This document shows, piece by piece, positions 13,780 through 59,238 of a stretch of DNA of 62,240 nt. Positions within the stretch are counted from its first letter, which is position 1. Each line of letters begins with the position of its first letter. The stretch is taken from the IMG/VR virus record IMGVR_UViG_3300045988_042951; one strand, 5' to 3'. Both the position numbers and the translations under genes were made by a program. The notes under the pieces are model-generated. The model was not told the origin of the DNA. It saw only the letters and a program-made list of their open reading frames with translations, and did not search any database. This DNA comes from a virus.

Positions 13780-14691
13780 ATGTATAAAAAGAAGATTAAA
13801 TGTGAGATATATCGTGATTCTATGCAGAATTACAAGAAATATGCAATACCGCCAGCACAGCTTATTATTGCTGATGTTCCTTACAATGTAGGAACTAACT
13901 TTTATGGAAGTAACCCAATGTGGTACAACGGTGGCGATAACAAAAATGGAGAAAGCAAACTTGCGAAAAAGGCGGCTTTCAATTCAGATTTTAATTTCAA
14001 TCTGTATGAATACTTCCATTTTTGTTCAAAGATGTTGAAAAAAGAGGACACAAAGCCTATCGCAAGGGGTAGAAGCAGTAATAGCCCTTGTATGATTGTA
14101 TTTTGTTCGTTTGAACAGTTATCAACATTGATTGCCGCCGCAAAGAAACACGGATTTGTCAATTACATACCGCTTGTATTCTGTAAAAATTACAGTCCAC
14201 AGGTACTTAAAGCGAATATGCGTATTGTTGGTGCTACGGAATATGCACTCGTACTGTACCGAAATAAGTTGCCGAAATTCCGAAACGGCTTGCAGATTGA
14301 TGAAAACGGAAAGAATATCAGAGGTACAGGACATATGGTATTTAACTGGTTTGACGGCGGTAATGAAGCGGAATGGGGCAGAACTTACTATAACAATGGC
14401 TCATATATGATGTGGGAAAAAGACGGGAAAGATGTACCTAAGATACACCCAGCACAAAAGCCTGTAGCAGTTCTTAAAAAGCTGATTGAGATTTTTACAG
14501 ACGAGGGAGATGTAGTTATTGACCCTTGTTGCGGTAGTGGTAGCACGCTAAGAGCCGCCGCAGAACTTGGCAGAAGTGCATACGGATTCGAGATTGACAG
14601 AAACTTTTACGAGCGCGCAAAGAATGAAATGCTTGTATTTGAAAAGGACAGTCAAATGAATATAAGTGATTTTATAGGAGATACAGTATGA
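13780..14691 (+). CDS. DNA N6-adenine/N4-cytosine methyltransferase (beta-class order)
   Basis: Catalytic ADVPYN (DPPY-type) near the N-terminus. AdoMet motif VIDPCCGSGST near the C-terminus. Confidence 0.85.
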   Translation: MYKKKIKCEIYRDSMQNYKKYAIPPAQLIIADVPYNVGTNFYGSNPMWYNGGDNKNGESKLAKKAAFNSDFNFNLYEYFHFCSKMLKKEDTKPIARGRSSNSPCMIVFCSFEQLSTLIAAAKKHGFVNYIPLVFCKNYSPQVLKANMRIVGATEYALVLYRNKLPKFRNGLQIDENGKNIRGTGHMVFNWFDGGNEAEWGRTYYNNGSYMMWEKDGKDVPKIHPAQKPVAVLKKLIEIFTDEGDVVIDPCCGSGSTLRAAAELGRSAYGFEIDRNFYERAKNEMLVFEKDSQMNISDFIGDTV

Positions 14692-16982: not shown

Positions 16983-18344
16983 ATGGAATGTGTTGCGTAC
17001 ATGAGAGTGTCGACAGAAAGGCAAGCTGAAGAAGGCAACGGACTTGAGAGCCAAAAGAGAGACATTCTCGACTACTGTTCTAAGAGCGAGCTGATCGTGA
17101 CAGATTGGTATGTTGACGATGGCTACACCGGGGCAAATATGAACCGCCCGGAGCTTCAAAGGCTTGTCACTGACTGTAAGCATAAGAGGATATCTTGCGT
17201 GGTGGCTTTTAAGCTTGACAGATTATCAAGGAATATGATTGACGGTCTATATATGATTGAGAAGATATTCCAGCCAAACGGCGTACAGTTCAAGTGTGTC
17301 CATGACAGTGTAAGCTATGACAGCCCAATGGAACAGGCGTATACTCAGATGATGGCTGTTTTTGCACAGCTTGATAAGAATACAATGATGTTGCGTATGC
17401 GTGGCGGCATGTTGGAAAGAGTAAAACAGGGTTACTGGCCGGGTGGCGGTAATACGCCTTATTGCTATTCTTATAGCAAAGACCAAGGTATATTAATACC
17501 TATCCCGGAACGAGCGGAACAAGCAAGAAAAGGTCTTGAATTGTACATCAAAGGATATTCGGATATAAAAATCTGCAAAATATGTGGATATAAAGGTGAG
17601 AAAGTTGTCCGGCAGATACTCACAAGCCCGGTAAATATCGGTATGATACCATACAAGGGCAAGATATATCAAGGTTTGCATGAGCCTATTTTTGATAAGG
17701 AATTGTTTGAGCTTGCACAGCAGTTGAGGAAATCCCGAAGTCTTAATAAGGCAAGCTGTATAACTGAACCGAACTTATTGACCGGGCTGTGTTACTGTGG
17801 TGTGTGCGGATGCGCTATGAGGTATCAGAAGTGGACACATGGAAAGCACAAGATATATTGCATGTCAAGAAACAAGTCCATGTCTTATTTGCCGAACCAC
17901 AACCCGGACTGCAATAATTCGCTTGAATGGGCGGATGATATAGAGGAGCAAGTCGAGAGAGAAATGCTCAAAATATCGCTTGACTTATCATCGTACAAGC
18001 CTAAGGAAAAGGAAACAAAGCTTGACATTATGCAGTCACAGCTTGACAAGGAGCAGACAAAATTGAAAAGGCTTTATGGCTTGTATGCTGATGGGAACGA
18101 CACAGTACTGAGCATGATTAAGGAGCTTGAAGGAAATATATCTGCGATTAAAGAGAACATAGCAGAAGAACAGAAGAACTTTTCGGCAAGGCAGAAGAAT
18201 GCTATCGTATATGACGAAATAAAAAAACTTGCCGATGTTTGGGGTAACATCGACAAGAAACAAAAAAATATGATACTTAAAACTATAATTGACAAGATAA
18301 TCATTGTCAACGGAAATATTGAAATACAGTTAAAAAGTTTTTAG
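16983..18344 (+). CDS. large serine recombinase (phage integrase type)
   Basis: YMRVSTERQ catalytic-Ser motif, DRLSRN, recombinase domain, Cys4 zinc ribbon (CYCGVCGC...C...C), coiled-coil C-terminus. Confidence 0.9.
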   Translation: MECVAYMRVSTERQAEEGNGLESQKRDILDYCSKSELIVTDWYVDDGYTGANMNRPELQRLVTDCKHKRISCVVAFKLDRLSRNMIDGLYMIEKIFQPNGVQFKCVHDSVSYDSPMEQAYTQMMAVFAQLDKNTMMLRMRGGMLERVKQGYWPGGGNTPYCYSYSKDQGILIPIPERAEQARKGLELYIKGYSDIKICKICGYKGEKVVRQILTSPVNIGMIPYKGKIYQGLHEPIFDKELFELAQQLRKSRSLNKASCITEPNLLTGLCYCGVCGCAMRYQKWTHGKHKIYCMSRNKSMSYLPNHNPDCNNSLEWADDIEEQVEREMLKISLDLSSYKPKEKETKLDIMQSQLDKEQTKLKRLYGLYADGNDTVLSMIKELEGNISAIKENIAEEQKNFSARQKNAIVYDEIKKLADVWGNIDKKQKNMILKTIIDKIIIVNGNIEIQLKSF

Positions 18345-22515: not shown

Positions 22516-22748
22516 TTTTTAATACCCCCTACCTATGAAAATGAAAAATAAAAAATCGAAGTCAAATTCTTGTGAAATTTGGCTCCGATTTAGTGTCATT
22601 TTGTCTGATTTTCTCGATATTTTTTTCAAAAAATTTTCCTAAAATTTTCGGGTCAACATTTTTGGTACGCCCCTATACCCGGAACGCAAATTTTGAAAAT
22701 TGATTTCAGATTTTCGCAAAACTCGGCTCTGATTTGGTGTTGTTTTTG
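22516..22748. repeat. two ~90-nt degenerate direct repeats spaced 143-144 nt apart in AT-rich non-coding DNA
   Basis: TTTTTAATACCCCCTACC...GGCTCCGATTTAGTGT (22516-22596) versus TTTTTGGTACGCCCCTATACC...GGCTCTGATTTGGTGT (22659-22740). Confidence 0.7.
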
Positions 22749-22947
22749 AGCCTAAAATGGATCTGTGTGACGGCGGGACCAGTAGAATATCACGCCCAAA
22801 GCCACCCGGCTCTGCCTATGACAATAAAGTTAGGCGCAACGAACAGACCACCAAACAGCATTGCGTTACAAGCTGTCGCCCATTAAGGGCGCAGTTGTCC
22901 GCTTGATGATAAAATAGCACTTCGATTTCAATTTGTCAAGGAACGAC

Positions 22948-22978
22948 AAAAAGAGAACTTTTTAGAAGTTCTCTTTTT
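22948..22978. terminator. bidirectional rho-independent terminator
   Basis: AAAAAGAGAACTT-TTTAG-AAGTTCTCTTTTT. Confidence 0.8.
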
Positions 22979-22984
22979 AACTAC

Positions 22985-23146
22985 TTATTCCTCCTCAATG
23001 GTATCAAGCACCATCTGAATGGCGTACTCACGGGAGCACATCTCGGCACCATCCCATCTGTTCGCCTCAACCATCTTGTTGGCTTCGGTTTCTGCATCAG
23101 CACGAGTGTAGCCGCAGCTCATGAGCCAATTAATTATCTTGTCCAT
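22985..23146 (-). CDS. small acidic hypothetical protein (53 aa, below the ORF-track cutoff)
   Basis: The minus strand reads GGGAGGATTTACACC-ATG GAC AAG..., giving MDKIINWLMSCGYTRADAETEANKMVEANRWDG...EEE*. Confidence 0.6.
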   Translation of the reverse strand: MDKIINWLMSCGYTRADAETEANKMVEANRWDGAEMCSREYAIQMVLDTIEEE

Positions 23147-23195
23147 GGTGTAAATCCTCCCTTGCTAAATTTTCAAGCCCCAAAGCGGAGCTGAT

Positions 23196-23237
23196 ACCGC
23201 CGCCCGGTAATGAGCCGGGGACATTCTCTGCGGCGGT
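23196..23237 (-). other. structured intercistronic element (copy 1 of the ACCGCCGC...GCGGCGGT clamp)
   Basis: The plus strand reads ACCGCCGCCCGGTAATGAGCCGGGGACATTCTCTGCGGCGGT: an outer 8-bp stem enclosing an inner hairpin. Confidence 0.6.
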
Positions 23238-23242
23238 GAATT

Positions 23243-23545
23243 TTACAAGCCGTAAAAGCTGAGAAGTTCAGCCTTGCGGCTATCATCGAACACGACCTCA
23301 GTCTTGCGGACACCAAAATCACAAAATAGCCAAGTGTCGCCGGCAACTATCGAAGCTGCTAACCCTCCCATCAATGCGTGGTCGACACAGCCAGCGACTG
23401 CATAAGCCAGCATCTCAGTTGTACCCTTTGACAGGCAAGTCAACATAAGTGCCTCGCTTGTAGCTGTTTTTTTGGCTACAAGCTCCATAATTTCATTGCT
23501 AGACGTAAATACGTCATCGCAATTATAAATGTCTAGTTTCTTCAT
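23243..23545 (-). CDS. hypothetical protein (100 aa)
   Basis: ORF with ACGGAGGTATTAG upstream on the minus strand. Confidence 0.6.
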   Translation of the reverse strand: MKKLDIYNCDDVFTSSNEIMELVAKKTATSEALMLTCLSKGTTEMLAYAVAGCVDHALMGGLAASIVAGDTWLFCDFGVRKTEVVFDDSRKAELLSFYGL

Positions 23546-23596
23546 ATTCTAATACCTCCGTATATTTAATTATATAGCCGACTTTATCGGCTGAAA

Positions 23597-23642
23597 AGTG
23601 ACGGGCGGAATCGAACCGCCCACGTTGGCACCTGCCGTCACT
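23597..23642 (-). ncRNA. tRNA-like minihelix (7-bp acceptor-like stem plus T-arm GGCGG-UUCGAUU-CCGCC), no D or anticodon arms
   Basis: The minus strand reads AGUGACG-GCAGGUGCCAACGUG-GGCGG-UUCGAUU-CCGCC-CGUCACU. It starts 3 nt after the stop of 23646..23921. Confidence 0.5.
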
Positions 23643-23645
23643 TGG

Positions 23646-23921
23646 CTAGTTTGATAAAATCATTCTAGCCGTGTTATAAACATACAGCCTGTTGTGGCTG
23701 TGGCGTTTAAAATCTCCATTTTCAGCAATCACGCGCCCGATATTCTCATATTTGAGGCTCACAAGCATTAAATACTTGTCGAGCAGTTCATCCGGGCATT
23801 TCAGACACTCGATGGCGTTTTCTATCTCGTCTTTCTTGCTGTTATAATAAATGCCCTCGATTTTCACGCCCTTGCTGTCTTGAAGCTTTTCAAATTCCTG
23901 CATCAATTCTGCTTTCGTCAT
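23646..23921 (-). CDS. hypothetical protein (91 aa)
   Basis: ORF with TAAGGAGGAATTTTT upstream on the minus strand. Confidence 0.6.
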   Translation of the reverse strand: MTKAELMQEFEKLQDSKGVKIEGIYYNSKKDEIENAIECLKCPDELLDKYLMLVSLKYENIGRVIAENGDFKRHSHNRLYVYNTARMILSN

Positions 23922-23974
23922 AAAAATTCCTCCTTATAATGTTAAAATTTTAATACCCCTATAAAGAGGGGAGA

Positions 23975-24016
23975 ACCGCCGCCAGTATCGGTCTGGCTGG
24001 CATCCTCTGCGGCGGT
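23975..24016 (-). other. structured intercistronic element (copy 2 of the ACCGCCGC...GCGGCGGT clamp)
   Basis: The plus strand reads ACCGCCGCCAGTATCGGTCTGGCTGGCATCCTCTGCGGCGGT. It has the same outer stem and CTCTGCGGCGGT end as copy 1. Confidence 0.6.
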
Positions 24017-24022
24017 TTTCAC

Positions 24023-24232
24023 TTAAATAATCTCTGAATATCCTAAGATTTTAACATCTGCTGGAATGCAGAAGAACATCACACCGGACGGCTCATAATC
24101 TGGAACGTAAGAAGCGTTATAACTTCTTCCGTCATTTCCAATTGCCAGATATTCGCCGGCTGTATGCTTCTTTGCTATTTCCTCAAAACTTATTAAATCC
24201 TCTGTATTTATCTTTCTTTCTACAACTGTCAT
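24023..24232 (-). CDS. hypothetical protein (69 aa)
   Basis: ORF in the same leftward operon. Confidence 0.55.
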   Translation of the reverse strand: MTVVERKINTEDLISFEEIAKKHTAGEYLAIGNDGRSYNASYVPDYEPSGVMFFCIPADVKILGYSEII

Positions 24233-24311
24233 ATCTATTCTCTTTCTGGTCTGCCATCATCAGAGCCGGGAGACCATCCCACGGCTGACGCTCCGAAGTG
24301 GAGCGTTTCGG

Positions 24312-24491
24312 CTATCTTTTTCGGCTGTAAAAATTCTCGCAAACCTCATCAAACTCCTCCGGCTTGGCGATAAAACGGACGCGGTAGCCGTTGCCTCGGA
24401 GAGCATCTGCATAGGCTCTCTTCGTTGTAAAAGTATCATTTTTTACAACTTGTATCTCGCCCTCATATCTCACGCTTGCCATTAACATCAT
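24312..24491 (-). CDS. small hypothetical protein (59 aa, below the ORF-track cutoff), first gene of the leftward operon
   Basis: The minus strand reads AAGGAGGTGACTATAT-ATGATG..., giving MMLMASVRYEGEIQVVKNDTFTTKRAYADALRGNGYRVRF... Confidence 0.6.
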   Translation of the reverse strand: MMLMASVRYEGEIQVVKNDTFTTKRAYADALRGNGYRVRFIAKPEEFDEVCENFYSRKR

Positions 24492-24566
24492 ATATAGTCA
24501 CCTCCTTATTTTTGGGTACAACAAACACATGTTTTGTATTTGTTCTATTTCCCTTTCGTTGATATT

Positions 24567-24595
24567 ATAATATCACTTTTAACAGTGATAGTCAA
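24567..24595 (-). promoter_or_regulatory. leftward promoter (TTGACT-17-TATTATAAT) with operator O1 in its spacer
   Basis: The minus strand has TTGACT (24595-24590) and TATTAT (24572-24567). The perfect palindrome TATCACT-N6-AGTGATA at 24571-24590 fills the spacer. Confidence 0.7.
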
Positions 24596-24601
24596 TAGGT
24601 T

Positions 24602-24656
24602 TATCACTTTTTTTAGAAATATTTTTATTGACTTTTTTTTAAAACTGCCATATATT
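24602..24656 (+). promoter_or_regulatory. regulator promoter (TTGACT-17-TATATT) preceded by degenerate operator O2
   Basis: TATCACT-N6-AGAAATA at 24602-24621. TTGACT at 24628-24633. TATATT at 24651-24656. Confidence 0.6.
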
Positions 24657-24681
24657 AAAAACACAACGAGGAGGTGATAGG

Positions 24682-24930
24682 ATGCTTAAATATAAATTTA
24701 ACGTGGGCGATGCCTTGGAGCGCGCCGGCTTCAATACCTACAAAGCTAAAACAACCGGACTGATAAGCCAAGACGCATTAAGGAAGATTAAGAATGAAGA
24801 TACAGGCATTAACTTAACAACGCTCAACAACCTGTGCCTGATACTGGACTTGCAGCCGAAGGACATATTCATATATGAAGAGACAGCGGAGGAGCACGAG
24901 AAGAAATTAAAAGTTTTTTCAAAAAATTAA
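24682..24930 (+). CDS. small HTH DNA-binding regulator (82 aa)
   Basis: ISQDALRKIKNEDTGINLTTLNNLCLILDLQPKDIFIY is an XRE/Cro-like HTH. ATG follows GAGGAGGTGA. Confidence 0.7.
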   Translation: MLKYKFNVGDALERAGFNTYKAKTTGLISQDALRKIKNEDTGINLTTLNNLCLILDLQPKDIFIYEETAEEHEKKLKVFSKN

Positions 24931-24933
24931 AAA

Positions 24934-24971
24934 TATCACTTGCAAAAGTGATAAAGATATGATATTATAAT
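24934..24971 (+). promoter_or_regulatory. operator O3 plus promoter (TTGCAA-17-TATTATAAT) for 25050..25361
   Basis: Perfect TATCACT-N6-AGTGATA at 24934-24953. It overlaps the -35 TTGCAA (24940-24945). -10 at 24963-24971. Confidence 0.65.
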
Positions 24972-25049
24972 GATGTCGGAAGGGAGAAAATAAGAATTTC
25001 CGAACGTGTGTTTGTTGCACGAAAAATTAAAATTTGGGAGGAAAAAATC

Positions 25050-25361
25050 ATGACAGTTAAAGAGTACATTAATAGTTGCTTGCAGTTTGCGGAGGACACA
25101 AGAGAATGGGGTGGACTTAATGAATACCGCTTCTACAGCACGACGGAGGGCTGCGGCTACTGGTATGAATCCTGCGACAACGCCGAGGGTGGACTTGATG
25201 TAAGTTGGGCTTTCGGTTTGACGGCAGAGCAGATACTAGACGAGGGAGCGCAGCACTTCGTGGATGAGCTGGCGACGCTGATAAGATGTACCGCTGACCA
25301 GTGCGAGGACGAGCGCGACGCTGAGATGCTGTACAGTGATTTAAAGTATTTTGAGCATTAA
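25050..25361 (+). CDS. acidic hypothetical protein (103 aa)
   Basis: ATG 25050 follows GGGAGGAAAAAATC. Asp/Glu-rich sequence. The GTG-extended ORF-track start lies in the leader. Confidence 0.6.
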   Translation: MTVKEYINSCLQFAEDTREWGGLNEYRFYSTTEGCGYWYESCDNAEGGLDVSWAFGLTAEQILDEGAQHFVDELATLIRCTADQCEDERDAEMLYSDLKYFEH

Positions 25362-25365
25362 AAAA

Positions 25366-25405
25366 GCGAACCGGGCGAGGTTAAGAACTTTCCCGGTTCG
25401 TTTTC
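25366..25405 (+). terminator. rho-independent terminator
   Basis: GCGAACCGGG-N16-CCCGGTTCG followed by TTTT. Confidence 0.75.
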
Positions 25406-25571
25406 TGCTGTAAAGTGCCTATTAAATTAAATAATAATGGCTCCTGCCAAGTCACGACCGATTAAAAACGTACCAAGCGACATTAACGGTCAGCACTTCC
25501 AGCTCTCACAGCATACATGATTTACGGCTGGTTGTCAACGTATCAGATATTATATTGATGTATTTTAAGCA

Positions 25572-25715
25572 TTGACAAATCCACGGCTAACTGATAATAT
25601 CATAGACGGGCGAGGGCGAAGAACTCATGGTAGTATCGCAAATAGCACATTGACAACCGCATATCTCACACACCTATAATTTTAGACCAATAACAATCCG
25701 TTATGTGGTCTTTTT
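25572..25715 (+). ncRNA. candidate small RNA (orphan promoter-to-terminator unit)
   Basis: TTGACA-17-TAATAT (25572-25600). Second TTGACA-19-TATAAT (25650-25680). Hairpin AGACCA..TGGTCT plus T5 (25684-25715). No ORF. Confidence 0.3.
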
Positions 25716-25898
25716 GTCGTTCTGTTAATATCTCAACAATGTATCTTATTTAATCCCATGTCTTTAAGTTATTTATGTATCGTATATTATTATAAAATTT
25801 ACTGCCATAGATTAAGAGCCTGAGCCCTTATATTATATTTATTAATACATAGGGCTGCTGGGCAGATGAACACAGCCCACATCATTGCATTAACGTGA

Positions 25899-25970
25899 TA
25901 AAATCTGTATACAAACTGTAAACAAAACGTAGCCTAGAGAAGATAAGATTAGAGAAGATAAGATTAATGA
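25899..25970 (+). repeat. dispersed ~75-nt repeat, copy A (upstream of terS)
   Basis: TAAAATCTGTATACAAACTGTAAACAAAACGTAGCCTAGAGAAGATAAGATTAGAGAAGATAAGATTAATGA. It matches 51699-51776. Confidence 0.8.
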
Positions 25971-26174
25971 GAACGCGTAAATAAATAATCAGTTTTTTTA
26001 AAAACGTATATAATTATATACTGTATATGTGATTAGTACCAAAGTACTATGCTCAAATACCCCAAAGTTATATTTTATATAGATTTTCGATATAGGCAAG
26101 GCTTATATCAAGTGCTATGATAATACCAGTGTGAGAGATAACCCGGAGATTATAACAGTGGAGGTGAATACATC

Positions 26175-27160: not shown

Positions 27161-27847
27161 ATGAATGAGTTGAAGATTTTTGGGAAAAAGGATTTTTGTA
27201 AGATAAAGGATTTTCAAAAAGAAAAGCCAAACTCGGTTGTAGGGATTATATATGTGATAGGATATAACAACAGTTTTTGCAAAATTGGTATGTCTTCGTT
27301 GCCGGCAGATAGAACATTGGCTTTACGTCATTATATTTCTGACTATATGCAGATGTCAGTTGACAAGATAGCTATAAGCAGCTGGCACACAAATTACAAG
27401 CAAAACGAAAAACTATTACATGAAAATTTTTCAAGTTGTCGTATACCGAATACTGAATTGTTTTCATGTGATATCCAAGAAGTTACTGAATTTATACAAA
27501 ATGATGGCATCAAGTTTGAAGATAATTCTGAAGAGATTTTGAAGAATATACAAAGAGGTAGCGATGCAGTTGTTGAATTTGGAAAAGCTATCATGCGGGG
27601 CGATTTTGAGCAGAAAAGCGAAAATACTTTTGATGAAAAATACAATAAAATGTTAAAAGAGTCAAATAAATTAACTGACGAAATCCTTTTTTCGGCGAGG
27701 TTTTTAGTTGATAGCTATAAAGAAGCATTAGAAACTCGCATGGAAAAAGAACTGAATGCACTTAAAGGGTATTTTGTTGATAAATGGATACAACACGGAC
27801 TAATAGATAAAGAAAGTGTTTTTGATTCACAGCAAAAAAATGACTGA
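27161..27847 (+). CDS. T5orf172/GIY-YIG-like domain protein with coiled-coil C-terminus
   Basis: GIIYVIGYNNSFCKIGMSS...R...H...NTELFSCD pattern at the N-terminus. Confidence 0.5.
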   Translation: MNELKIFGKKDFCKIKDFQKEKPNSVVGIIYVIGYNNSFCKIGMSSLPADRTLALRHYISDYMQMSVDKIAISSWHTNYKQNEKLLHENFSSCRIPNTELFSCDIQEVTEFIQNDGIKFEDNSEEILKNIQRGSDAVVEFGKAIMRGDFEQKSENTFDEKYNKMLKESNKLTDEILFSARFLVDSYKEALETRMEKELNALKGYFVDKWIQHGLIDKESVFDSQQKND

Positions 27848-27874: not shown

Positions 27875-28249
27875 ATGACAGGCAAAGAATATCAGCAGTT
27901 GGCGATGAGAACCAACGATGGACTTAATAGATTGCGTTTAGAGGACGCAATCGCAAATCAGGGTGACATATCGGTATCACAGTTGCTTAACGGAGCATTA
28001 GGGCTTACTGGTGAAGCCGGAGAAGTCTCAGACCTCATAAAGAAAGGCATATTCCACGAAAAAGGCATAGACCTTGAACATCTCAAAAAGGAGCTGGGTG
28101 ATTGCGCATGGTACTTGGCAATGATATGTGACGCTTGCGGATTTACGCTTGATGATGTCATGCAGACAAACATTGATAAACTCAAGGCGCGTTATCCCGA
28201 GGGCTTTGACACATACAGAGCTAACAACAGGACGGAGGGTGATATATGA
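27875..28249 (+). CDS. MazG-like nucleotide pyrophosphohydrolase
   Basis: YQQLAMRT...GLTGEAGEVSDLIKK...ELGDCAWYLA...DKLKARYPEGF. Confidence 0.8.
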   Translation: MTGKEYQQLAMRTNDGLNRLRLEDAIANQGDISVSQLLNGALGLTGEAGEVSDLIKKGIFHEKGIDLEHLKKELGDCAWYLAMICDACGFTLDDVMQTNIDKLKARYPEGFDTYRANNRTEGDI

Positions 28250-28706: not shown

Positions 28707-28778
28707 TGGGCTATCGCCAAGCGGTAAGGCACAGCACTTTGACTGCTGTATTCGTGGGTTCGAATCCCACTAGCCCAG
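28707..28778 (+). tRNA. tRNA-Gln (anticodon UUG)
   Basis: Cloverleaf read by hand: acceptor TGGGCTA/TAGCCCA, anticodon stem CAGCA/TGCTG with loop CTTTGAC, T-arm GTGGG-TTCGAAT-CCCAC. Confidence 0.85.
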
Positions 28779-29015
28779 CTTGGTCATTTATGACCACTGT
28801 TTTACTCACATTGTCATGTGGTGTAAAACCTCCCTTACGACACCTATTAGCGGAATGCTGTTAAGAGCCGTCACAAGGCTCGATAGGTTTATGGGTTTTG
28901 TTGCTTTAGTTCCCCAGTGTTCCATAACACACTAAAAGAATAGCAACAGTGCGGACAACATAAGCCGGGAAGCTTGCGACACTGCTGGTTCTCGCTGTCG
29001 CCCAGTCTGCACTTA

Positions 29016-29089
29016 CGGGATATAGTTCAGCTTGGCAGAACGCTCCGCTTGGGACGGAGAGGTCGTAGGTTCAAATCCTGCTATTCCGA
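29016..29089 (+). tRNA. tRNA-Pro (anticodon UGG)
   Basis: Acceptor CGGGATA/TATTCCG, D-arm GTTC..GAAC, anticodon stem CTCCG/CGGAG with loop CTTGGGA, T-arm GTAGG-TTCAAAT-CCTGC. Confidence 0.85.
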
Positions 29090-29181
29090 CTGCCTCGAAT
29101 GAGGCACAAAGCAATACCCCTTTTGATTCAATTTTCATGTAGCCTTGCCACCGCTCGGCAAGTAAAACAAAGAGCGGACAT

Positions 29182-29253
29182 GGCGCATTAGTCAAGTGGT
29201 TAAGACACCGCCTTTTCACGGCGGAGACGTGAGTTCGATTCTCTCATGCGTCA
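29182..29253 (+). tRNA. tRNA-Glu (anticodon UUC)
   Basis: Acceptor GGCGCAT/ATGCGTC (one G-U pair), anticodon stem CCGCC/GGCGG with loop TTTTCAC, T-loop TTCGATT. The T-stem has one T-T mismatch. Confidence 0.75.
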
Positions 29254-29452
29254 CTTAGACGTAAATTGTCTGTTGGTGTGTAGCAAAATAGGTAAACGCA
29301 AGCAAAGAAGCTGATTGATAGCATGTTTGCCAAGTAATAAGCGGGGATTGTCCGTAATTAGCAACAAGCAGCTTTCAGAAATCAATCATGTGTGGTGCAA
29401 ATCCACACCGCATCAATCTTTTGGTATTGACACTGAATTACGGAGGACTGCA

Positions 29453-57490: not shown

Positions 57491-58483
57491 TCACACTGTA
57501 GCCACATACTTCTCAAAGATAGTTCGTGTATGCTCCTCACCTATGTAACTGTAATGCTTGCCTGTAACGCTTTGGTCTTTGTGTCCAAGATATTCCCCAG
57601 CATCATGCACCGAACCACCACGCTTGATGATGTTGGTGGCGGTGGTCTTACGGAATAGGTGAGGATATATGCGGCGGTCAATCCTTGCGTTGTTCTTAAT
57701 GCGTGTAAGCGTTGCCCTTACGCTATCTTCACTCATTGACTTATCTGTGCGGCTTTGGGTAAAAAGCGGCTTATCGGGGCTGTTAGAGCCGTTCCTTGAC
57801 ACGATATAGTCGCGCAGATACTTGTAAGCCACATCATCAAGATAGACTGTTCTGTAATTCTGCGTTTTGGGTGCGAATATCCGCACTGTCTTATTATTCC
57901 AGTCCACATCGGACACTTTCACATTGATTAGCTCACCGACACGGACAGCGGTTGAACGAAGAAATTCTATAATTGCCCTGTCCTTAGGAGCAGTGCAACC
58001 GCTTTTTAATTGTTCATATTCTGTCGGCTCCATGTGGTCAATCGGCTTTTCAATTTCCTTGTATGCCTCGATTGCGTCACATGGGTTGCGGTCAATTATA
58101 TTCTGTTTGCACAACCAACGATAAAATGCCGATATATTACGGCGGTGATTGTTAAGCGATACAGCGGAATTGTTAGGTGCAAGACTGCCTAAGAAGCCCT
58201 CAATGTCGATTGAGGTTATATCGGCTATTGACTTGTTAGCGTATTTGATAAGTTTGTTGACAGTATCAAGGTAATAGCTTGCAGTTTTGGGCGATATTTT
58301 CGGTGCTTTTATCTTATTAAACAAGTCAAATATCTGCTCATCAGTGTAAGTGCTTGGTTTATCCACAATATTCACAGTCAACAGTTCACAGCTTATGGCA
58401 TCAACCAAGACAGCCATAGCCTTAGCTGACAGAAAATCGGTCATTTTGGTTACAACATTGTTAATAATTGTCGCTTTGTTCAT
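57491..58483 (-). CDS. tyrosine site-specific recombinase (integrase/Rci/Xer family)
   Basis: SAM-like N-domain. Catalytic pattern ...STAVRVGEL..., YPHLFRKT (HxxR), LGHKD, GKHYSY (Tyr). Confidence 0.9.
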   Translation of the reverse strand: MNKATIINNVVTKMTDFLSAKAMAVLVDAISCELLTVNIVDKPSTYTDEQIFDLFNKIKAPKISPKTASYYLDTVNKLIKYANKSIADITSIDIEGFLGSLAPNNSAVSLNNHRRNISAFYRWLCKQNIIDRNPCDAIEAYKEIEKPIDHMEPTEYEQLKSGCTAPKDRAIIEFLRSTAVRVGELINVKVSDVDWNNKTVRIFAPKTQNYRTVYLDDVAYKYLRDYIVSRNGSNSPDKPLFTQSRTDKSMSEDSVRATLTRIKNNARIDRRIYPHLFRKTTATNIIKRGGSVHDAGEYLGHKDQSVTGKHYSYIGEEHTRTIFEKYVATV

Positions 58484-58863: not shown

Positions 58864-58877
58864 CCCTCTCCTCTTTT
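58851..58877. terminator. bidirectional terminator
   Basis: GGAGAGGG-AATAA-CCCTCTCC with flanking T/A runs. Confidence 0.7.
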
Positions 58878-59238
58878 ACTCATCTAACAGTTTCTTTGCT
58901 ATTTCAGCAAGATTTTCCCAGTCTTTGACGGTTAGCCTTGTTAAGGCTGATACAAATTTTTTCTGGAAATTGTCATCTTTTAAAGCCATCGTCTCAGTGA
59001 CAAAAGCTCCGATTTCCTGCTCCTTGGTTCTTGATTTGAACATTTCCCCGATGCCATTCCGAAGCCATTCTTCATTGACGTTAAATTCTTTACATATCAA
59101 TGCTATAGCTGAATCACTTGGAATACTTCTACCCATTTCGTATGTTGCAACAGTGTTTCTTTTCACTTTTATTTTGTCAGCAAATTCTTGTTGCGTCAAA
59201 TTCAGAGCATTTCTTATCTTCCTAATACGCTCATTCAT
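58876..59238 (-). CDS. CI-like XRE-family repressor
   Basis: IRKIRNALNLTQQEFADKIKVKRNTVATYEMGRSIPS HTH. Divergent from the early promoter. Confidence 0.8.
   Translation of the reverse strand: MNERIRKIRNALNLTQQEFADKIKVKRNTVATYEMGRSIPSDSAIALICKEFNVNEEWLRNGIGEMFKSRTKEQEIGAFVTETMALKDDNFQKKFVSALTRLTVKDWENLAEIAKKLLDE

What the first reader, a model, noticed from the sequence alone, without database searches (positions are those of the whole stretch)
22985..25361. Self-contained island under a private HTH regulator: three TATCACT-N6-AGTGATA operators and an inverted duplicate promoter-leader cassette
Seen in sequence:
- An 82-aa HTH gene (24682..24930) is flanked by two outward-facing promoter-leader units that are about 70% identical to each other. 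Each has a -35 element, a 17-nt spacer and TATTATAAT. Each has a leader containing GAAGGGA/GAAAGGGA and the 17-mer AC(A/G)TGTGTTTGTTG(T/C)AC (24516-24532 on the minus strand, 25004-25020 on the plus strand).
- Each promoter carries a perfect palindrome TATCACT-N6-AGTGATA overlapping its -35/spacer (24571-24590 and 24934-24953).
- A degenerate third copy (24602-24621) abuts the regulator's own promoter.
- The left unit drives five small proteins (59, 69, 91, 100 and 53 aa). Two of these fall below the ORF-track cutoff.
- The right unit drives an acidic 103-aa protein.
- None of these products shows a phage structural or replication motif.
- The island is bounded by strong terminators (22948-22978 and 25366-25405).

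Inference: a tightly repressed accessory module. The architecture resembles Aca-controlled anti-defence operons or a moron cassette, and the small and acidic products are plausible anti-defence candidates. Function cannot be read from the sequence.
Basis: partly seen in the sequence, partly recalled or inferred. Interest (0 to 1): 0.65.

Follow-up and report, generated by a model that had tools for sequence, protein, structure and literature searches.

The report
Repressor-controlled phage operon punctuated by RNA elements
A small phage repressor with conserved operator sites controls two outward-facing arrays of tiny unknown genes. In the leftward array every gene is followed by an RNA "cut-here" signal: a hammerhead ribozyme, a tRNA-like stub, or an uncatalogued 48-base motif. 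This offers a direct way to test what phage hammerheads are for.

Summary
Two perfect TATCACT-N6-AGTGATA palindromes and one degenerate copy sit on three sigma-70-like promoters around an 82-aa Cro/C1-type HTH gene. The two leaders are about 71% identical.

The regulator is not private to this phage. At least 173 viral contigs encode relatives. In 80 of them the half-sites are conserved while the N6 spacer and the cargo genes vary. The phage's CI/integrase module lies elsewhere (57.5-61.8 kb).

All four 79-101-nt intergenic spacers of the leftward operon carry a structured RNA element on the coding strand:
- a type II hammerhead (24245-24313, 65.5 bits);
- two copies of a 48-nt three-way-junction motif, "R1", absent from Rfam;
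- a tRNA-like acceptor/T-arm minihelix, "TL".

R1 and TL each occur in more than 119 viral contigs, always co-oriented with these operons. They are anchored to the preceding stop codon as the hammerheads are, and they swap with hammerheads at homologous junctions.

Best reading: a repressor-gated cassette array whose transcript is cut into single-gene mRNAs. Self-cleavage is strongly supported. Cleavage of TL and R1 by host tRNA-processing enzymes is inferred.

No cargo function, anti-defence or otherwise, could be established.

The parts
22948..22978 (.). Perfect 13-bp hairpin with A-run and T-run flanks. Bidirectional terminator-like end of the leftward operon.
   Evidence: I9, 100% complementary arms; sequence
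22985..23146 (-). 53-aa cargo ORF (p53).
   Evidence: homologs at 88-96% aa identity in L048, L183, L184, L189, always preceded by R1
23177..23191 (-). Small companion hairpin (GCUCCGCUUUGGGGC) between R1 and the ribosome-binding site of p53.
   Evidence: fold; a hairpin starting about 4 nt after R1/TL is seen in 56-71% of instances against 18% of shuffles
23192..23239 (-). R1 motif, copy G4. A 48-nt three-way junction: P1 ACCGCCG/CGGCGGU, mini-hairpin with GAGAA loop, and 5-bp stem with 7-nt loop CUCAUUA.
   Evidence: model R1: 38.7 bits, E 3e-9; no Rfam match at E<=10
23243..23545 (-). 100-aa cargo ORF (p100).
   Evidence: homologs at 86-98% in six further loci (L048, L185-L189); 11 unnamed homolog clusters
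23576..23592 (-). Companion hairpin (AGCCGAUAAAGUCGGCU) after the tRNA-like element.
   Evidence: fold
23593..23644 (-). TL element (G3), a tRNA-like minihelix. It has a 7-bp acceptor-like stem AGUGACG/CGUCACU (23642..23636 with 23603..23597), a 15-nt linker that folds as a short hairpin with an AGGU loop, a 5-bp T stem GGCGG/CCGCC with canonical T-loop UUCGAUU, then UUUU. It has no anticodon arm.
   Evidence: model R2, 64.7 bits, but this sequence was in the training set; T arm matches the tmRNA/tRNA clan; not called a tRNA by ARAGORN
23646..23921 (-). 91-aa cargo ORF (p91).
   Evidence: homologs at 74-95% in 7 loci, always followed by a TL element
23956..23971 (-). Companion hairpin (CCCCUCUUUAUAGGGG) after R1 copy G2.
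   Evidence: fold
23971..24018 (-). R1 motif, copy G2 (AACCGCC-GCAGAGGAUGC-CA-GCCAG-ACCGAUA-CUGGC-GGCGGUU).
   Evidence: model R1: 68.1 bits, E 6e-18. In L189 the slot before the p91 homolog holds a hammerhead. After p69 homologs, four loci hold a hammerhead where the window has this R1.
24023..24232 (-). 69-aa cargo ORF (p69).
   Evidence: homologs at 81-86% in L222, L242, L243, L255
24245..24313 (-). Type II hammerhead ribozyme. It starts inside the UAG stop codon of p59. The predicted cut is after GUC, between 24287 and 24286 on the minus strand.
   Evidence: Rfam RF02276: 65.5 bits (gathering score 37), E 2e-11; full-length; core CUGAUGA, GAAA and GUC intact
24312..24491 (-). 59-aa cargo ORF (p59), first gene of the leftward operon.
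   Evidence: homologs at 92-98% in L048, L185, L188, L189
24506..24557 (-). Left leader, the inverted duplicate of the right leader (24979-25030). It forms a 5'-proximal hairpin.
   Evidence: I1, 71%; fold -14.7 kcal/mol, z -3.3, 0 of 200 shuffles as stable
24567..24595 (-). Promoter PL (TTGACT-17-TGnTATTAT). Operator OL (24571-24590) fills the spacer.
   Evidence: an equivalent site is found upstream of the regulator in about half of 80 relatives
24602..24621 (.). Degenerate operator O3 (TATCACT-N6-AGAAATA). It lies between the -35 boxes of PL and Preg, 31 bp centre-to-centre from OL.
   Evidence: a similar second upstream site, TATCACTTTTTTTAGTAATA, occurs in relatives
24628..24656 (+). Promoter of the regulator gene (TTGACT-17-TATATT).
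24682..24930 (+). 82-aa Cro/C1-type HTH regulator.
   Evidence: Pfam HTH_26, E 1.5e-7; 173 viral contigs encode relatives, and the 80 best kept are 73-99% identical
24934..24968 (+). Operator OR (24934-24953) overlapping the -35 of promoter PR (24940-24968, TTGCAA-17-TGnTATTAT).
   Evidence: present right after the regulator's stop codon in nearly all 80 relatives, with conserved half-sites and a variable centre
25050..25361 (+). 103-aa acidic cargo ORF (p103), followed by a terminator-like hairpin at 25363-25404.
   Evidence: 7 unnamed homolog clusters. In L183 its homolog is preceded by a TL element.

Best explanation
The locus is the variable accessory-gene region of a large family of roughly 57-62-kb temperate siphovirus-like phages of gut Lachnospiraceae and related Clostridia.

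Regulation. A small Cro/C1-type HTH protein binds TATCACT-N6-AGTGATA operators. These overlap two strong outward-facing promoters: PL, where the operator fills the spacer, and PR, where it covers the -35. A weaker third site sits next to the regulator's own promoter. The protein therefore gates two arrays of small promoterless gene cassettes. Binding itself is inferred from conservation.

RNA elements. The leftward transcript is polycistronic. Each cassette ends in an RNA module that starts at or within a few bases of the stop codon. The module is either a type II hammerhead, a tRNA-like acceptor/T-arm minihelix (TL), or the related three-way-junction motif R1. TL and R1 are followed by a U-rich linker, a small hairpin and the next ribosome-binding site.

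Proposed function. The three element classes share strand, position and stop-codon anchoring, and they replace one another at homologous junctions. They most likely do one job: they cut the operon RNA between cassettes, so that each mRNA ends in a 3' structure and begins with a 5' hairpin. This would insulate freely shuffled cassettes from one another.

Shown versus inferred. The hammerhead cuts itself; the motif is shown here, and cleavage is established for clustered prophage hammerheads. TL and R1 are proposed to be cut by host tRNA-processing enzymes. RNase Z-type cleavage on the 3' side is favoured, because RNase P cleavage at the 5' side would often truncate the stop codon. Another endonuclease acting in the U-rich linker is also possible. 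This step is inferred, not shown.

The function of the cargo proteins is unknown.
For: Operators and promoters:
- Exact palindromes occur only here in the window.
- The promoters are recovered by the consensus scan.
- The half-sites are conserved and the N6 spacer is free across 80 loci.
- A separate CI/integrase module exists elsewhere in the window.

Hammerhead:
- It scores 65.5 bits against a gathering score of 37, with a complete core.
- Relatives carry up to three per operon.

R1:
- The fixed pattern hits more than 119 viral contigs.
- A variant P1 (GCCAUUG/CAAUGGC) gives three compensatory pairs.
- 96.7% of cells are paired, and 0 of 500 shuffles reach the covariation score.
- All 32 hits in 80 regulator-anchored loci lie on the leftward-operon strand.

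TL:
- It has a 7-bp acceptor stem, a 5-bp T stem and a UUCGAUU loop, with several pair types at each stem position.
- One subfamily alone hits at least 120 viral contigs.
- All 64 model hits are co-oriented with the two outward operons.
- ARAGORN calls none of the elements in the ten sequences it scanned a tRNA.

Shared syntax:
- The first nucleotide of the element is the last base of a stop codon in 60 of 112 R1, 106 of 162 hammerhead and 25 of 73 TL contexts.
- A companion hairpin follows R1 or TL in 56-71% of cases, against 18% of shuffles.

Interchange at homologous junctions:
- After p69 homologs: R1 in the window, hammerhead in four loci.
- After p59: hammerhead in the window, R1 in L048.
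- Before p91: R1 in the window, hammerhead in L189.

Precedent: clustered hammerheads flanking single prophage genes cleave in vitro, and in E. coli for the A. tumefaciens ardA cluster. They were proposed to process long phage transcripts (PMC3088659).
Against: - No transcript or cleavage data exist for this locus.
- R1 lacks a canonical T-loop. It is not detected by the TL model, so its kinship with TL rests on architecture only.
- P2 of R1 shows no compensatory change.
- About three quarters of R1 copies, and most TL copies, are followed by UUUU. This would also fit leaky intrinsic terminators, although the two R1 copies in the window lack a U-run.
- If RNase P cut at the 5' end of TL or R1, it would destroy the stop codon in the many cases where the two overlap.
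- TL instances were selected by a rule that requires pairing, so the percentage paired is by construction. Only the variety of pair types is informative.
- My ORF calls in the census of gaps were naive.
- Many relatives carry hammerheads with CCGAUGA in place of CUGAUGA. These may be slow or inactive.
Confidence: 0.6

Rival explanations
1. R1 and TL are not cleavage sites. They are leaky intrinsic terminators or 3'-end stabilisers that grade expression along the operon. The hammerhead is an unrelated neighbour.
For: - Most R1 copies end in GGCGGCGG-UUUU(U/A), and TL copies end in UUUU/UUUA.
- The catalogue of IMG/VR structured RNAs reports many terminator-like candidates (PMC10690425).
Against: - The window's own R1 copies are followed by UUCUCCCC and UAUCAGC, not a U-run.
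- The terminator scan does not flag them.
- Three or four terminators in series would silence the distal cassettes.
- A plain terminator needs neither an invariant GCAGAGRAUGC segment nor a canonical T-loop.
- These elements swap with a self-cleaving ribozyme at the same junctions.
Confidence: 0.2
2. R1 is itself a new class of small self-cleaving ribozyme. It occupies the same slot as the hammerhead because it performs the same chemistry.
For: - It has the same position, strand and stop-codon anchoring as hammerheads, and it swaps with them.
- An 11-nt invariant segment sits in a compact three-way junction.
- It is absent from Rfam 15.
- Searching next to known ribozymes is how twister-sister, pistol and hatchet were found (own knowledge of Weinberg et al. 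2015).
Against: - The architecture parallels the TL elements. It has the same order of 7-bp stem, GCA-loop-UGC mini-hairpin, 5-bp stem with 7-nt loop, 3' strand and U-run. That points to protein or RNase recognition rather than catalysis.
- It has very few unpaired junction nucleotides.
- I tried an HDV-like fold and it fails: there is no P2, no P1.1, and no J4/2 cytosine in copy G2.
Confidence: 0.1
3. The elements act mainly at the DNA level, as conserved boundary sequences at which cassettes are exchanged between phages. This would resemble lambdoid boundary sequences or integron attC sites.
For: - The cassette order is mosaic among relatives.
- Chimeric R1 copies combine a 5' half of one type with a 3' half of another (L120, L134).
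- L048 has a deletion with one end inside an R1 copy.
Against: - The elements are strictly strand-specific relative to transcription.
- One class is a bona fide ribozyme with an intact catalytic core, and another has a T-loop.
- Compensatory changes preserve RNA pairing, including G-U pairs.
- No integron-type integrase is adjacent.
- Recombination at conserved elements can be a by-product of their conservation.
Confidence: 0.07
4. One reading: the payload is an anti-defence arsenal under an Aca-like repressor. This is compatible with the best explanation, because it concerns the cargo and not the RNA elements.
For: - A conserved regulator and operator are combined with hypervariable small cargo.
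- The module is separate from the lysogeny switch.
- Neighbouring genes include a DNA methylase and MazG.
- A hammerhead-flanked ardA anti-restriction gene is a precedent (PMC3088659).
Against: - No cargo protein matches any known family, anti-defence or otherwise.
- The structure model is unusable.
- The regulator is not co-transcribed as the last gene of the cargo operon, as most Aca genes are.
Confidence: 0.35

Closest known systems
Clustered hammerhead ribozymes flanking single genes in prophages (Perreault et al. 2011, PMC3088659; examples include Clostridium scindens and the A. tumefaciens ardA cluster)
   Same: - A type II hammerhead sits in a phage operon of small genes, directly after a stop codon.
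- Relatives carry up to three per operon.
- The host clade is similar (Lachnospiraceae).
- The proposed role is processing of long phage transcripts.
   Different: - Here the hammerhead is only one of three interchangeable element classes.
- The other two (TL and R1) are not ribozyme families in Rfam.
- I did not find them described in the searchable literature.
tRNA punctuation of mitochondrial polycistronic transcripts, and tRNA-like processing signals (plant mitochondrial t-elements, MALAT1-mascRNA)
   Same: - tRNA-shaped structures between cistrons are the presumed substrates of RNase P and RNase Z.
- The elements abut or overlap stop codons.
   Different: - This is a bacterial virus.
- The elements are 46-56-nt stubs without an anticodon arm and with a vestigial D arm.
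- Cleavage is untested.
- No polyadenylation is known here that could complete a truncated stop codon.
Aca-regulated anti-CRISPR operons
   Same: - A small HTH repressor is present.
- Inverted-repeat operators overlap a strong promoter.
- The small cargo next to a conserved regulator is variable.
   Different: - The regulator has its own promoter and sits between two cargo arrays.
- No cargo is a known Acr.
- Membership in Aca families could not be tested.
Lambdoid Cro/CI immunity region
   Same: - A Cro/C1-type HTH is present.
- Three related operators lie between back-to-back promoters.
- The half-site TATCAC resembles lambda operator half-sites (own knowledge).
   Different: - The phage's CI-like repressor, integrase, Rha and antirepressor are 33 kb away.
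- The operators are 7-N6-7, not 17-mers.
- The module controls small accessory genes.
RNase III processing sites between phage T7 early genes
   Same: Structured intercistronic elements turn a polycistronic phage transcript into stable monocistronic mRNAs.
   Different: - The structures differ: a three-way junction or a tRNA-like fold, not long irregular hairpins.
- The enzymes probably differ.
- A ribozyme can substitute here.

Membership tests
Hammerhead ribozyme, type II (Rfam RF02276) | Score above the curated gathering threshold over the full model | tested here: met
   65.5 bits against 37; model positions 1-66 of 66; E 2e-11
Hammerhead ribozyme, type II (Rfam RF02276) | Conserved core CUGAUGA, GAAA and an NUH cleavage triplet; stems I and III closed by loops; stem II open | tested here: met
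   The alignment and 6 reads CGAAAC-stem III-GUC-stem I-CUGAUGA.
Hammerhead ribozyme, type II (Rfam RF02276) | Self-cleavage activity | not testable with these tools
   Needs in vitro transcription. Close prophage examples cleave (PMC3088659).
tRNA / tRNA-like structure (element G3 and the TL family) | 7-bp acceptor stem stacked on a 5-bp T stem with a 7-nt T-loop UUCRANY | tested here: met
   G3 reads AGUGACG...GGCGG-UUCGAUU-CCGCC-CGUCACU. Across 32 family members, six of the seven acceptor positions and three of the five T-stem positions show several pair types.
tRNA / tRNA-like structure (element G3 and the TL family) | D arm and anticodon arm; recognised by tRNA finders | tested here: not met
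   Only a 9-25-nt linker is present, sometimes with a 3-4-bp hairpin that has a GG loop. ARAGORN and Rfam tRNA do not call these elements. They are therefore tRNA-like stubs, not tRNAs.
tRNA / tRNA-like structure (element G3 and the TL family) | Cleavage by RNase P and/or RNase Z | not testable with these tools
   Inference from shape only.
R1 as a member of the TL family | Detectable by the TL covariance model, or possession of a T-loop | tested here: not met
   The R1 copies do not score with model R2 at E<=1. The loop is xUCRxxx with an invariant C3, but no U54-A58-type pair is possible. The resemblance is architectural only.
HDV-like ribozyme (considered for R1) | Nested double pseudoknot with P1.1, P2 and a catalytic C in J4/2 | tested here: not met
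   By inspection, no P2 partner or P1.1 exists. Copy G2 has no C after the second hairpin, and many copies lack a second hairpin. No Rfam hit.
Intrinsic terminator (considered for R1 and TL) | G+C-rich hairpin immediately followed by a U-run | tested here: inconclusive
   The R1 copies in the window lack a U-run, and the scan does not call them. About 75% of R1 copies elsewhere have UUUU.
Aca-controlled anti-defence operon | HTH regulator with inverted-repeat operator overlapping the cargo promoter | tested here: met
Aca-controlled anti-defence operon | Regulator encoded in the cargo operon; cargo includes a known anti-defence protein | tested here: not met
   The regulator has its own promoter. 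No cargo protein matched any of the libraries searched, and none of these holds anti-CRISPR or Aca families as such.
Phage immunity (CI/Cro) switch | Adjacent to integrase/lysogeny genes and the only such repressor module | tested here: not met
   The CI-like HTH_3 gene at 58876-59238(-) lies next to the Tyr integrase at 57491-58483(-), Rha and Ant.
Integron-like cassette array | IntI-type integrase next to the array and attC sites acting as folded DNA | tested here: not met
   No integrase is adjacent; the nearest is a serine recombinase 4.6 kb away on the other strand. The elements have RNA-family hallmarks.

The most novel reading that the evidence does not exclude
Gut phages use a modular, interchangeable set of "cut-here" RNA signals to break cassette operons into single-gene mRNAs. 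The set comprises a self-cleaving hammerhead, a tRNA-like stub that borrows the host's tRNA-processing enzymes, and the R1 motif. This would be a bacterial-virus counterpart of mitochondrial tRNA punctuation. R1 would be either a new RNase P/Z-type substrate class or a new self-cleaving ribozyme.
Probability: 0.4. Interest if true: 0.85.

Novelty: new variant of a known kind. Interest (0 to 1): 0.72.

Why it matters
The biological role of most bacterial and phage hammerheads is still described as unresolved (review PMC6765202).

In this locus a hammerhead shares its exact slot with elements shaped like substrates of tRNA-processing nucleases. The shared features are the position directly after a stop codon, the strand, and the operon. 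In relatives the elements replace one another. This is independent comparative evidence that the job is intercistronic RNA cutting. It also yields simple, decisive experiments.

The work adds two widespread and apparently uncatalogued phage RNA motifs. Each is present in more than a hundred gut viral contigs.

It describes a natural version of the ribozyme and tRNA insulators that synthetic biologists build into operons.

It also defines a conserved repressor-operator pair that marks hypervariable cargo arrays. These arrays are a good hunting ground for host-takeover or anti-defence genes.

Tried and rejected
- **HDV-like fold for R1.** The 7-bp P1, the stem with a 7-nt loop, and the second hairpin looked suggestive. 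No P2, P1.1 or catalytic C is conserved, and many copies lack the second hairpin. Rejected.
- **Known ribozyme or other Rfam family for G2, G3 and G4.** The permissive scan at E<=10 found nothing except a T-arm match.
- **RNA hairpin covariation in the shared 17-mer leader.** The two differences do not fall on pairing partners, and the 17-mer is confined to close relatives. It is treated as a trace of the duplication.
- **Function of the cargo proteins.**
  - Pfam, PHROGs, NCBIfam, PADLOC and PDB sequence searches were empty.
  - Homolog searches returned only unnamed close relatives.
  - The AlphaFold model of p103 had pLDDT 55, so no fold search was run.
- **MAFFT alignment of all TL subfamilies.** It misplaced the 5' strands. 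Pairs were counted from a structural parse instead, and a model was built from one consistently aligned subset.
- **RNAalifold on the R1 alignment.** It recovered only part of P1 because of gap columns.
- **High-GC genome hits to the R1 pattern** (Solirubrobacteraceae and others). They score only about 25 bits and are taken as forced pattern matches.
- **Supplements of the IMG/VR structured-RNA catalogue.** They are not held, so I could not check whether R1 or TL are listed there anonymously.

Full report
**1. The observation.**
- Two perfect TATCACT-N6-AGTGATA palindromes lie at 24571-24590 and 24934-24953. A degenerate copy (TATCACT-N6-AGAAATA) lies at 24602-24621.
- In the whole 62-kb window these are the only matches with two or fewer mismatches.
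- A consensus scan recovers three promoters: PL on the minus strand (24595..24567, TTGACT-17-TATTAT with TG), Preg (24628-24656) and PR (24940-24968, TTGCAA-17-TATTAT with TG).
- OL fills the spacer of PL. OR covers the -35 of PR. O3 lies between the back-to-back -35 boxes, 31 bp from OL.
- The promoter-leader units are inverted duplicates: 52 nt at 71%, with TGATATTATAAT exact.
- The 82-aa product is a Cro/C1-type HTH (Pfam HTH_26, E 1.5e-7).
- The five leftward ORFs and the 103-aa rightward ORF (ATG at 25050) exist. Hairpins close both ends.

**2. The regulator in context.** The HTH is not private to this phage.
- At least 173 IMG/VR contigs, mostly 55-62 kb, encode relatives. The 80 best that were kept are 73-99% identical.
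- In 80 fetched loci the half-sites TATCACT/AGTGATA are kept while the central six bases vary freely. Examples are TGCAAA, TTACAT, TTATGT and TGTAAA.
- The OR-PR unit follows the regulator's stop codon in almost all of them. An upstream site is found in about half.
- The genes downstream of PR differ from phage to phage. This is phylogenetic footprinting for an operator, not proof of binding.
- The window is a temperate siphovirus-like genome. It encodes SbcC-like and RecT proteins, a serine recombinase, large terminase, portal and tape measure.
- Its lysogeny module lies elsewhere: Tyr integrase 57491-58483(-), CI-like HTH_3 58876-59238(-), Rha and antirepressor.
- The HTH at 24682 is therefore a second, local regulator of an accessory region.
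- All six small ORFs recur in other contigs at 73-98% identity in different orders. They are real, mobile cassettes.

An Rfam scan finds a full-length type II hammerhead at 24313..24245 on the minus strand.
- It scores 65.5 bits against a gathering score of 37, E 2e-11.
- It starts inside the UAG of the 59-aa gene. The predicted cut follows GUC, between 24287 and 24286.
- The other three intergenic spacers of the operon (101, 100 and 96 nt) are also structured on the coding strand.
- Two of them share ACCGCCG-CAGAGRAUG...CGGCGGU.
- The third has an acceptor-like 7-bp stem stacked on GGCGG-UUCGAUU-CCGCC, a textbook T arm.

**4. The R1 motif.**
- Nearly all hits are the same 48-nt element in intergenic DNA, starting at a stop codon and followed by the next gene's ribosome-binding site.
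- The structure is a three-way junction. It comprises P1 of 6-7 bp, a GCA-GAGRA-UGC mini-hairpin, a two-base linker, a 5-bp stem with a 7-nt loop xUCRxxx, the P1 3' strand and usually UUUU.
- A scan that freed P1 found a variant, GCCAUUG...CAAUGGC, with three compensatory pairs. It also found chimeras of the two types.
- On 50 distinct sequences, 96.7% of cells pair, five pairs show double changes, and 0 of 500 shuffles reach the covariation score. P2 is invariant and therefore uninformative.
- A covariance model scores the window copies at 68.1 and 38.7 bits and finds no others in the window.
- Rfam 15 has nothing like it at E<=10.
- True copies also occur in genomes of Lachnospiraceae and other Clostridia: Faecalicatena contorta, Moryella indoligenes, Bariatricus, Mediterraneibacter and Clostridium spp.. 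This points to the host clade.

**5. The tRNA-like (TL) elements.**
- A structural parse finds a family with a 7-bp acceptor-like stem, a 9-25-nt linker, a 5-bp T stem, UUCGAUU, the acceptor 3' strand and UUU(U/A).
- There are at least five subfamilies, with different pair types at six of the seven acceptor-stem positions and three of the five T-stem positions. Pairing itself was a selection criterion; the diversity of pairs is the evidence.
- Longer linkers fold into 3-4-bp hairpins with GG-containing loops (ACCG-GAGG-CGGU, GCA-GGCGG-UGC). This echoes R1's GCA-GAGGA-UGC.
- One subfamily alone hits at least 120 viral contigs.
- A model built from 15 members finds 64 hits in the 80 regulator-anchored loci. 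Sixty lie in the leftward operon, four lie in the rightward operon, and none is antisense.
- ARAGORN calls none of the elements in the ten sequences it scanned a tRNA, and the model does not pick up the window's real tRNAs.

**6. One syntax, three classes.**
- All 32 R1 hits in the 80 loci are on the leftward-operon strand.
- Rfam finds a hammerhead in 13 of 20 loci at the first junction.
- Relatives have up to three hammerheads per operon, of three sequence subtypes. One was confirmed at 35.3 bits, E 6e-5.
- In L006 a hammerhead, a TL and an R1 occupy three consecutive junctions.
- The first base of the element is the last base of the stop codon of an ORF of at least 40 aa in 60 of 112 R1, 106 of 162 hammerhead and 25 of 73 TL contexts. 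Nearly all the rest lie within 12 nt.
- The 34 nt after R1 or TL fold into a small hairpin starting about 4 nt downstream in 56-71% of cases, against 18% of shuffles.
- At homologous junctions the classes swap. After p69 homologs the window has R1 and four loci have a hammerhead. After p59 the window has a hammerhead and L048 has R1. Before p91 the window has R1 and L189 has a hammerhead.

**7. Mechanism.**
- *Shown.* The motifs, their conservation, orientation, anchoring and interchange are shown.
- *Established elsewhere.* Clustered prophage hammerheads flanking single genes cleave in vitro and in E. coli. They were proposed to process long phage transcripts (PMC3088659). Their role is still called unresolved (PMC6765202).
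- *Inferred.* All three classes cut the operon RNA between cassettes.
  - The upstream mRNA keeps a structure directly after its stop codon: hammerhead stem III, or the whole TL or R1.
  - The downstream mRNA starts with a hairpin: hammerhead stem I, or the companion hairpin.
  - Both ends would then be protected from exonucleases, as expected from established knowledge of 5'-proximal stabilisers in Firmicutes.
- For TL the obvious enzymes are RNase Z and RNase P. I favour a 3'-side cut, because a 5'-side cut would often remove the last base of the stop codon. An endonuclease acting on the U-rich linker is equally possible.
- The repressor probably shuts both strong promoters after an early burst, but the timing is a guess.

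**8. Rivals.**
- Leaky terminators are plausible for many U-run-bearing copies. They are less plausible for the window's R1 copies, and they do not explain the invariant loop, the T-loop or the swaps.
- R1 as a new ribozyme is not excluded and is cheap to test.
- DNA-level boundary sequences are suggested by chimeras and mosaicism. They are contradicted as the primary role by strand specificity and RNA hallmarks.
- The anti-defence reading concerns the cargo and remains open. No protein matched anything.

**9. Novelty.**
- The regulator-operator design and the hammerhead-in-prophage-operon theme are known kinds.
- I did not find the co-option of tRNA-like stubs and R1 as alternates of a ribozyme in Rfam 15 or in seven full-text searches.
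- A 2023 catalogue of 8,495 anonymous IMG/VR structured-RNA candidates may contain these motifs, but I could not check it.
- I rate the finding a new variant of a known kind, with high interest because it makes the function of phage hammerheads directly testable.

Noticed in passing
window 22690-22939 (minus strand): Just beyond the left terminator there is a near-consensus promoter (TTGACA-17-TATTTT with TG, 22939..22911). It reads into about 200 nt without a convincing ORF. That stretch folds moderately better than shuffles (z -2.0) and is conserved in relatives (L185-L188). It may be a small RNA gene.
   Followed up: partly
window 25406-26174: A 770-bp stretch has no ORF of 60 aa or more. 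It carries several promoter-like sites on both strands (25578..25549, 25538..25510, 25572-25600). It lies between the rightward cargo gene and the first late-region ORF.
   Followed up: no
relatives, e.g. L191, L196, L209, L210, L217, L222 (leftward operons): Many hammerheads of one subtype carry CCGAUGA instead of the core CUGAUGA (U4 to C), in otherwise intact and variable sequences. They could be slow or inactive variants, or a tolerated core change.
   Followed up: partly
L120 386-433, L134 5588-5635; L048 1165-1204: Chimeric R1 copies pair the 5' strand of the GCCAUUG type with the 3' strand of the CGGCGG type. In L048 a deletion ends inside an R1 copy. This suggests recombination within the elements.
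   Followed up: partly
window 23258-23284 versus 24290-24316: The last codons of the 100-aa gene resemble the start of the hammerhead (78% over 27 nt: GATAGCCGCAAGGCTGAACTTCTCAGC versus GATAGCCGAAACGCTCCACTTCGGAGC). This may be a relic of a hammerhead that once followed an ancestral gene end.
   Followed up: no
window 16983-18344 and 57491-58483: The phage encodes two recombinases: a 453-aa serine integrase/invertase-type protein and a 330-aa tyrosine integrase next to the CI-like repressor.
   Followed up: no
L012 5483-5550, L243 6908-6973, L238 6963-7029: Relatives carry an int-alpA RNA (RF02996) next to their tRNA cluster. The window, which has tRNA-Gln, tRNA-Pro and tRNA-Glu at 28707-29254, shows no such hit.
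   Followed up: no
window 13780-14691, 27161-27847, 27875-28249: A DNA N6/N4 methylase, a T5orf172-domain protein and a MazG-like pyrophosphohydrolase flank the region. These genes are often linked to phage-host conflict.
   Followed up: no
L183 4159-4213, L185/L186 4146-4201, L188 4141-4196 (plus strand): The rightward operon of close relatives also contains a TL element after its first gene. In L183 it precedes the homolog of the window's 103-aa protein. The window instead has a single gene followed by a hairpin.
   Followed up: partly
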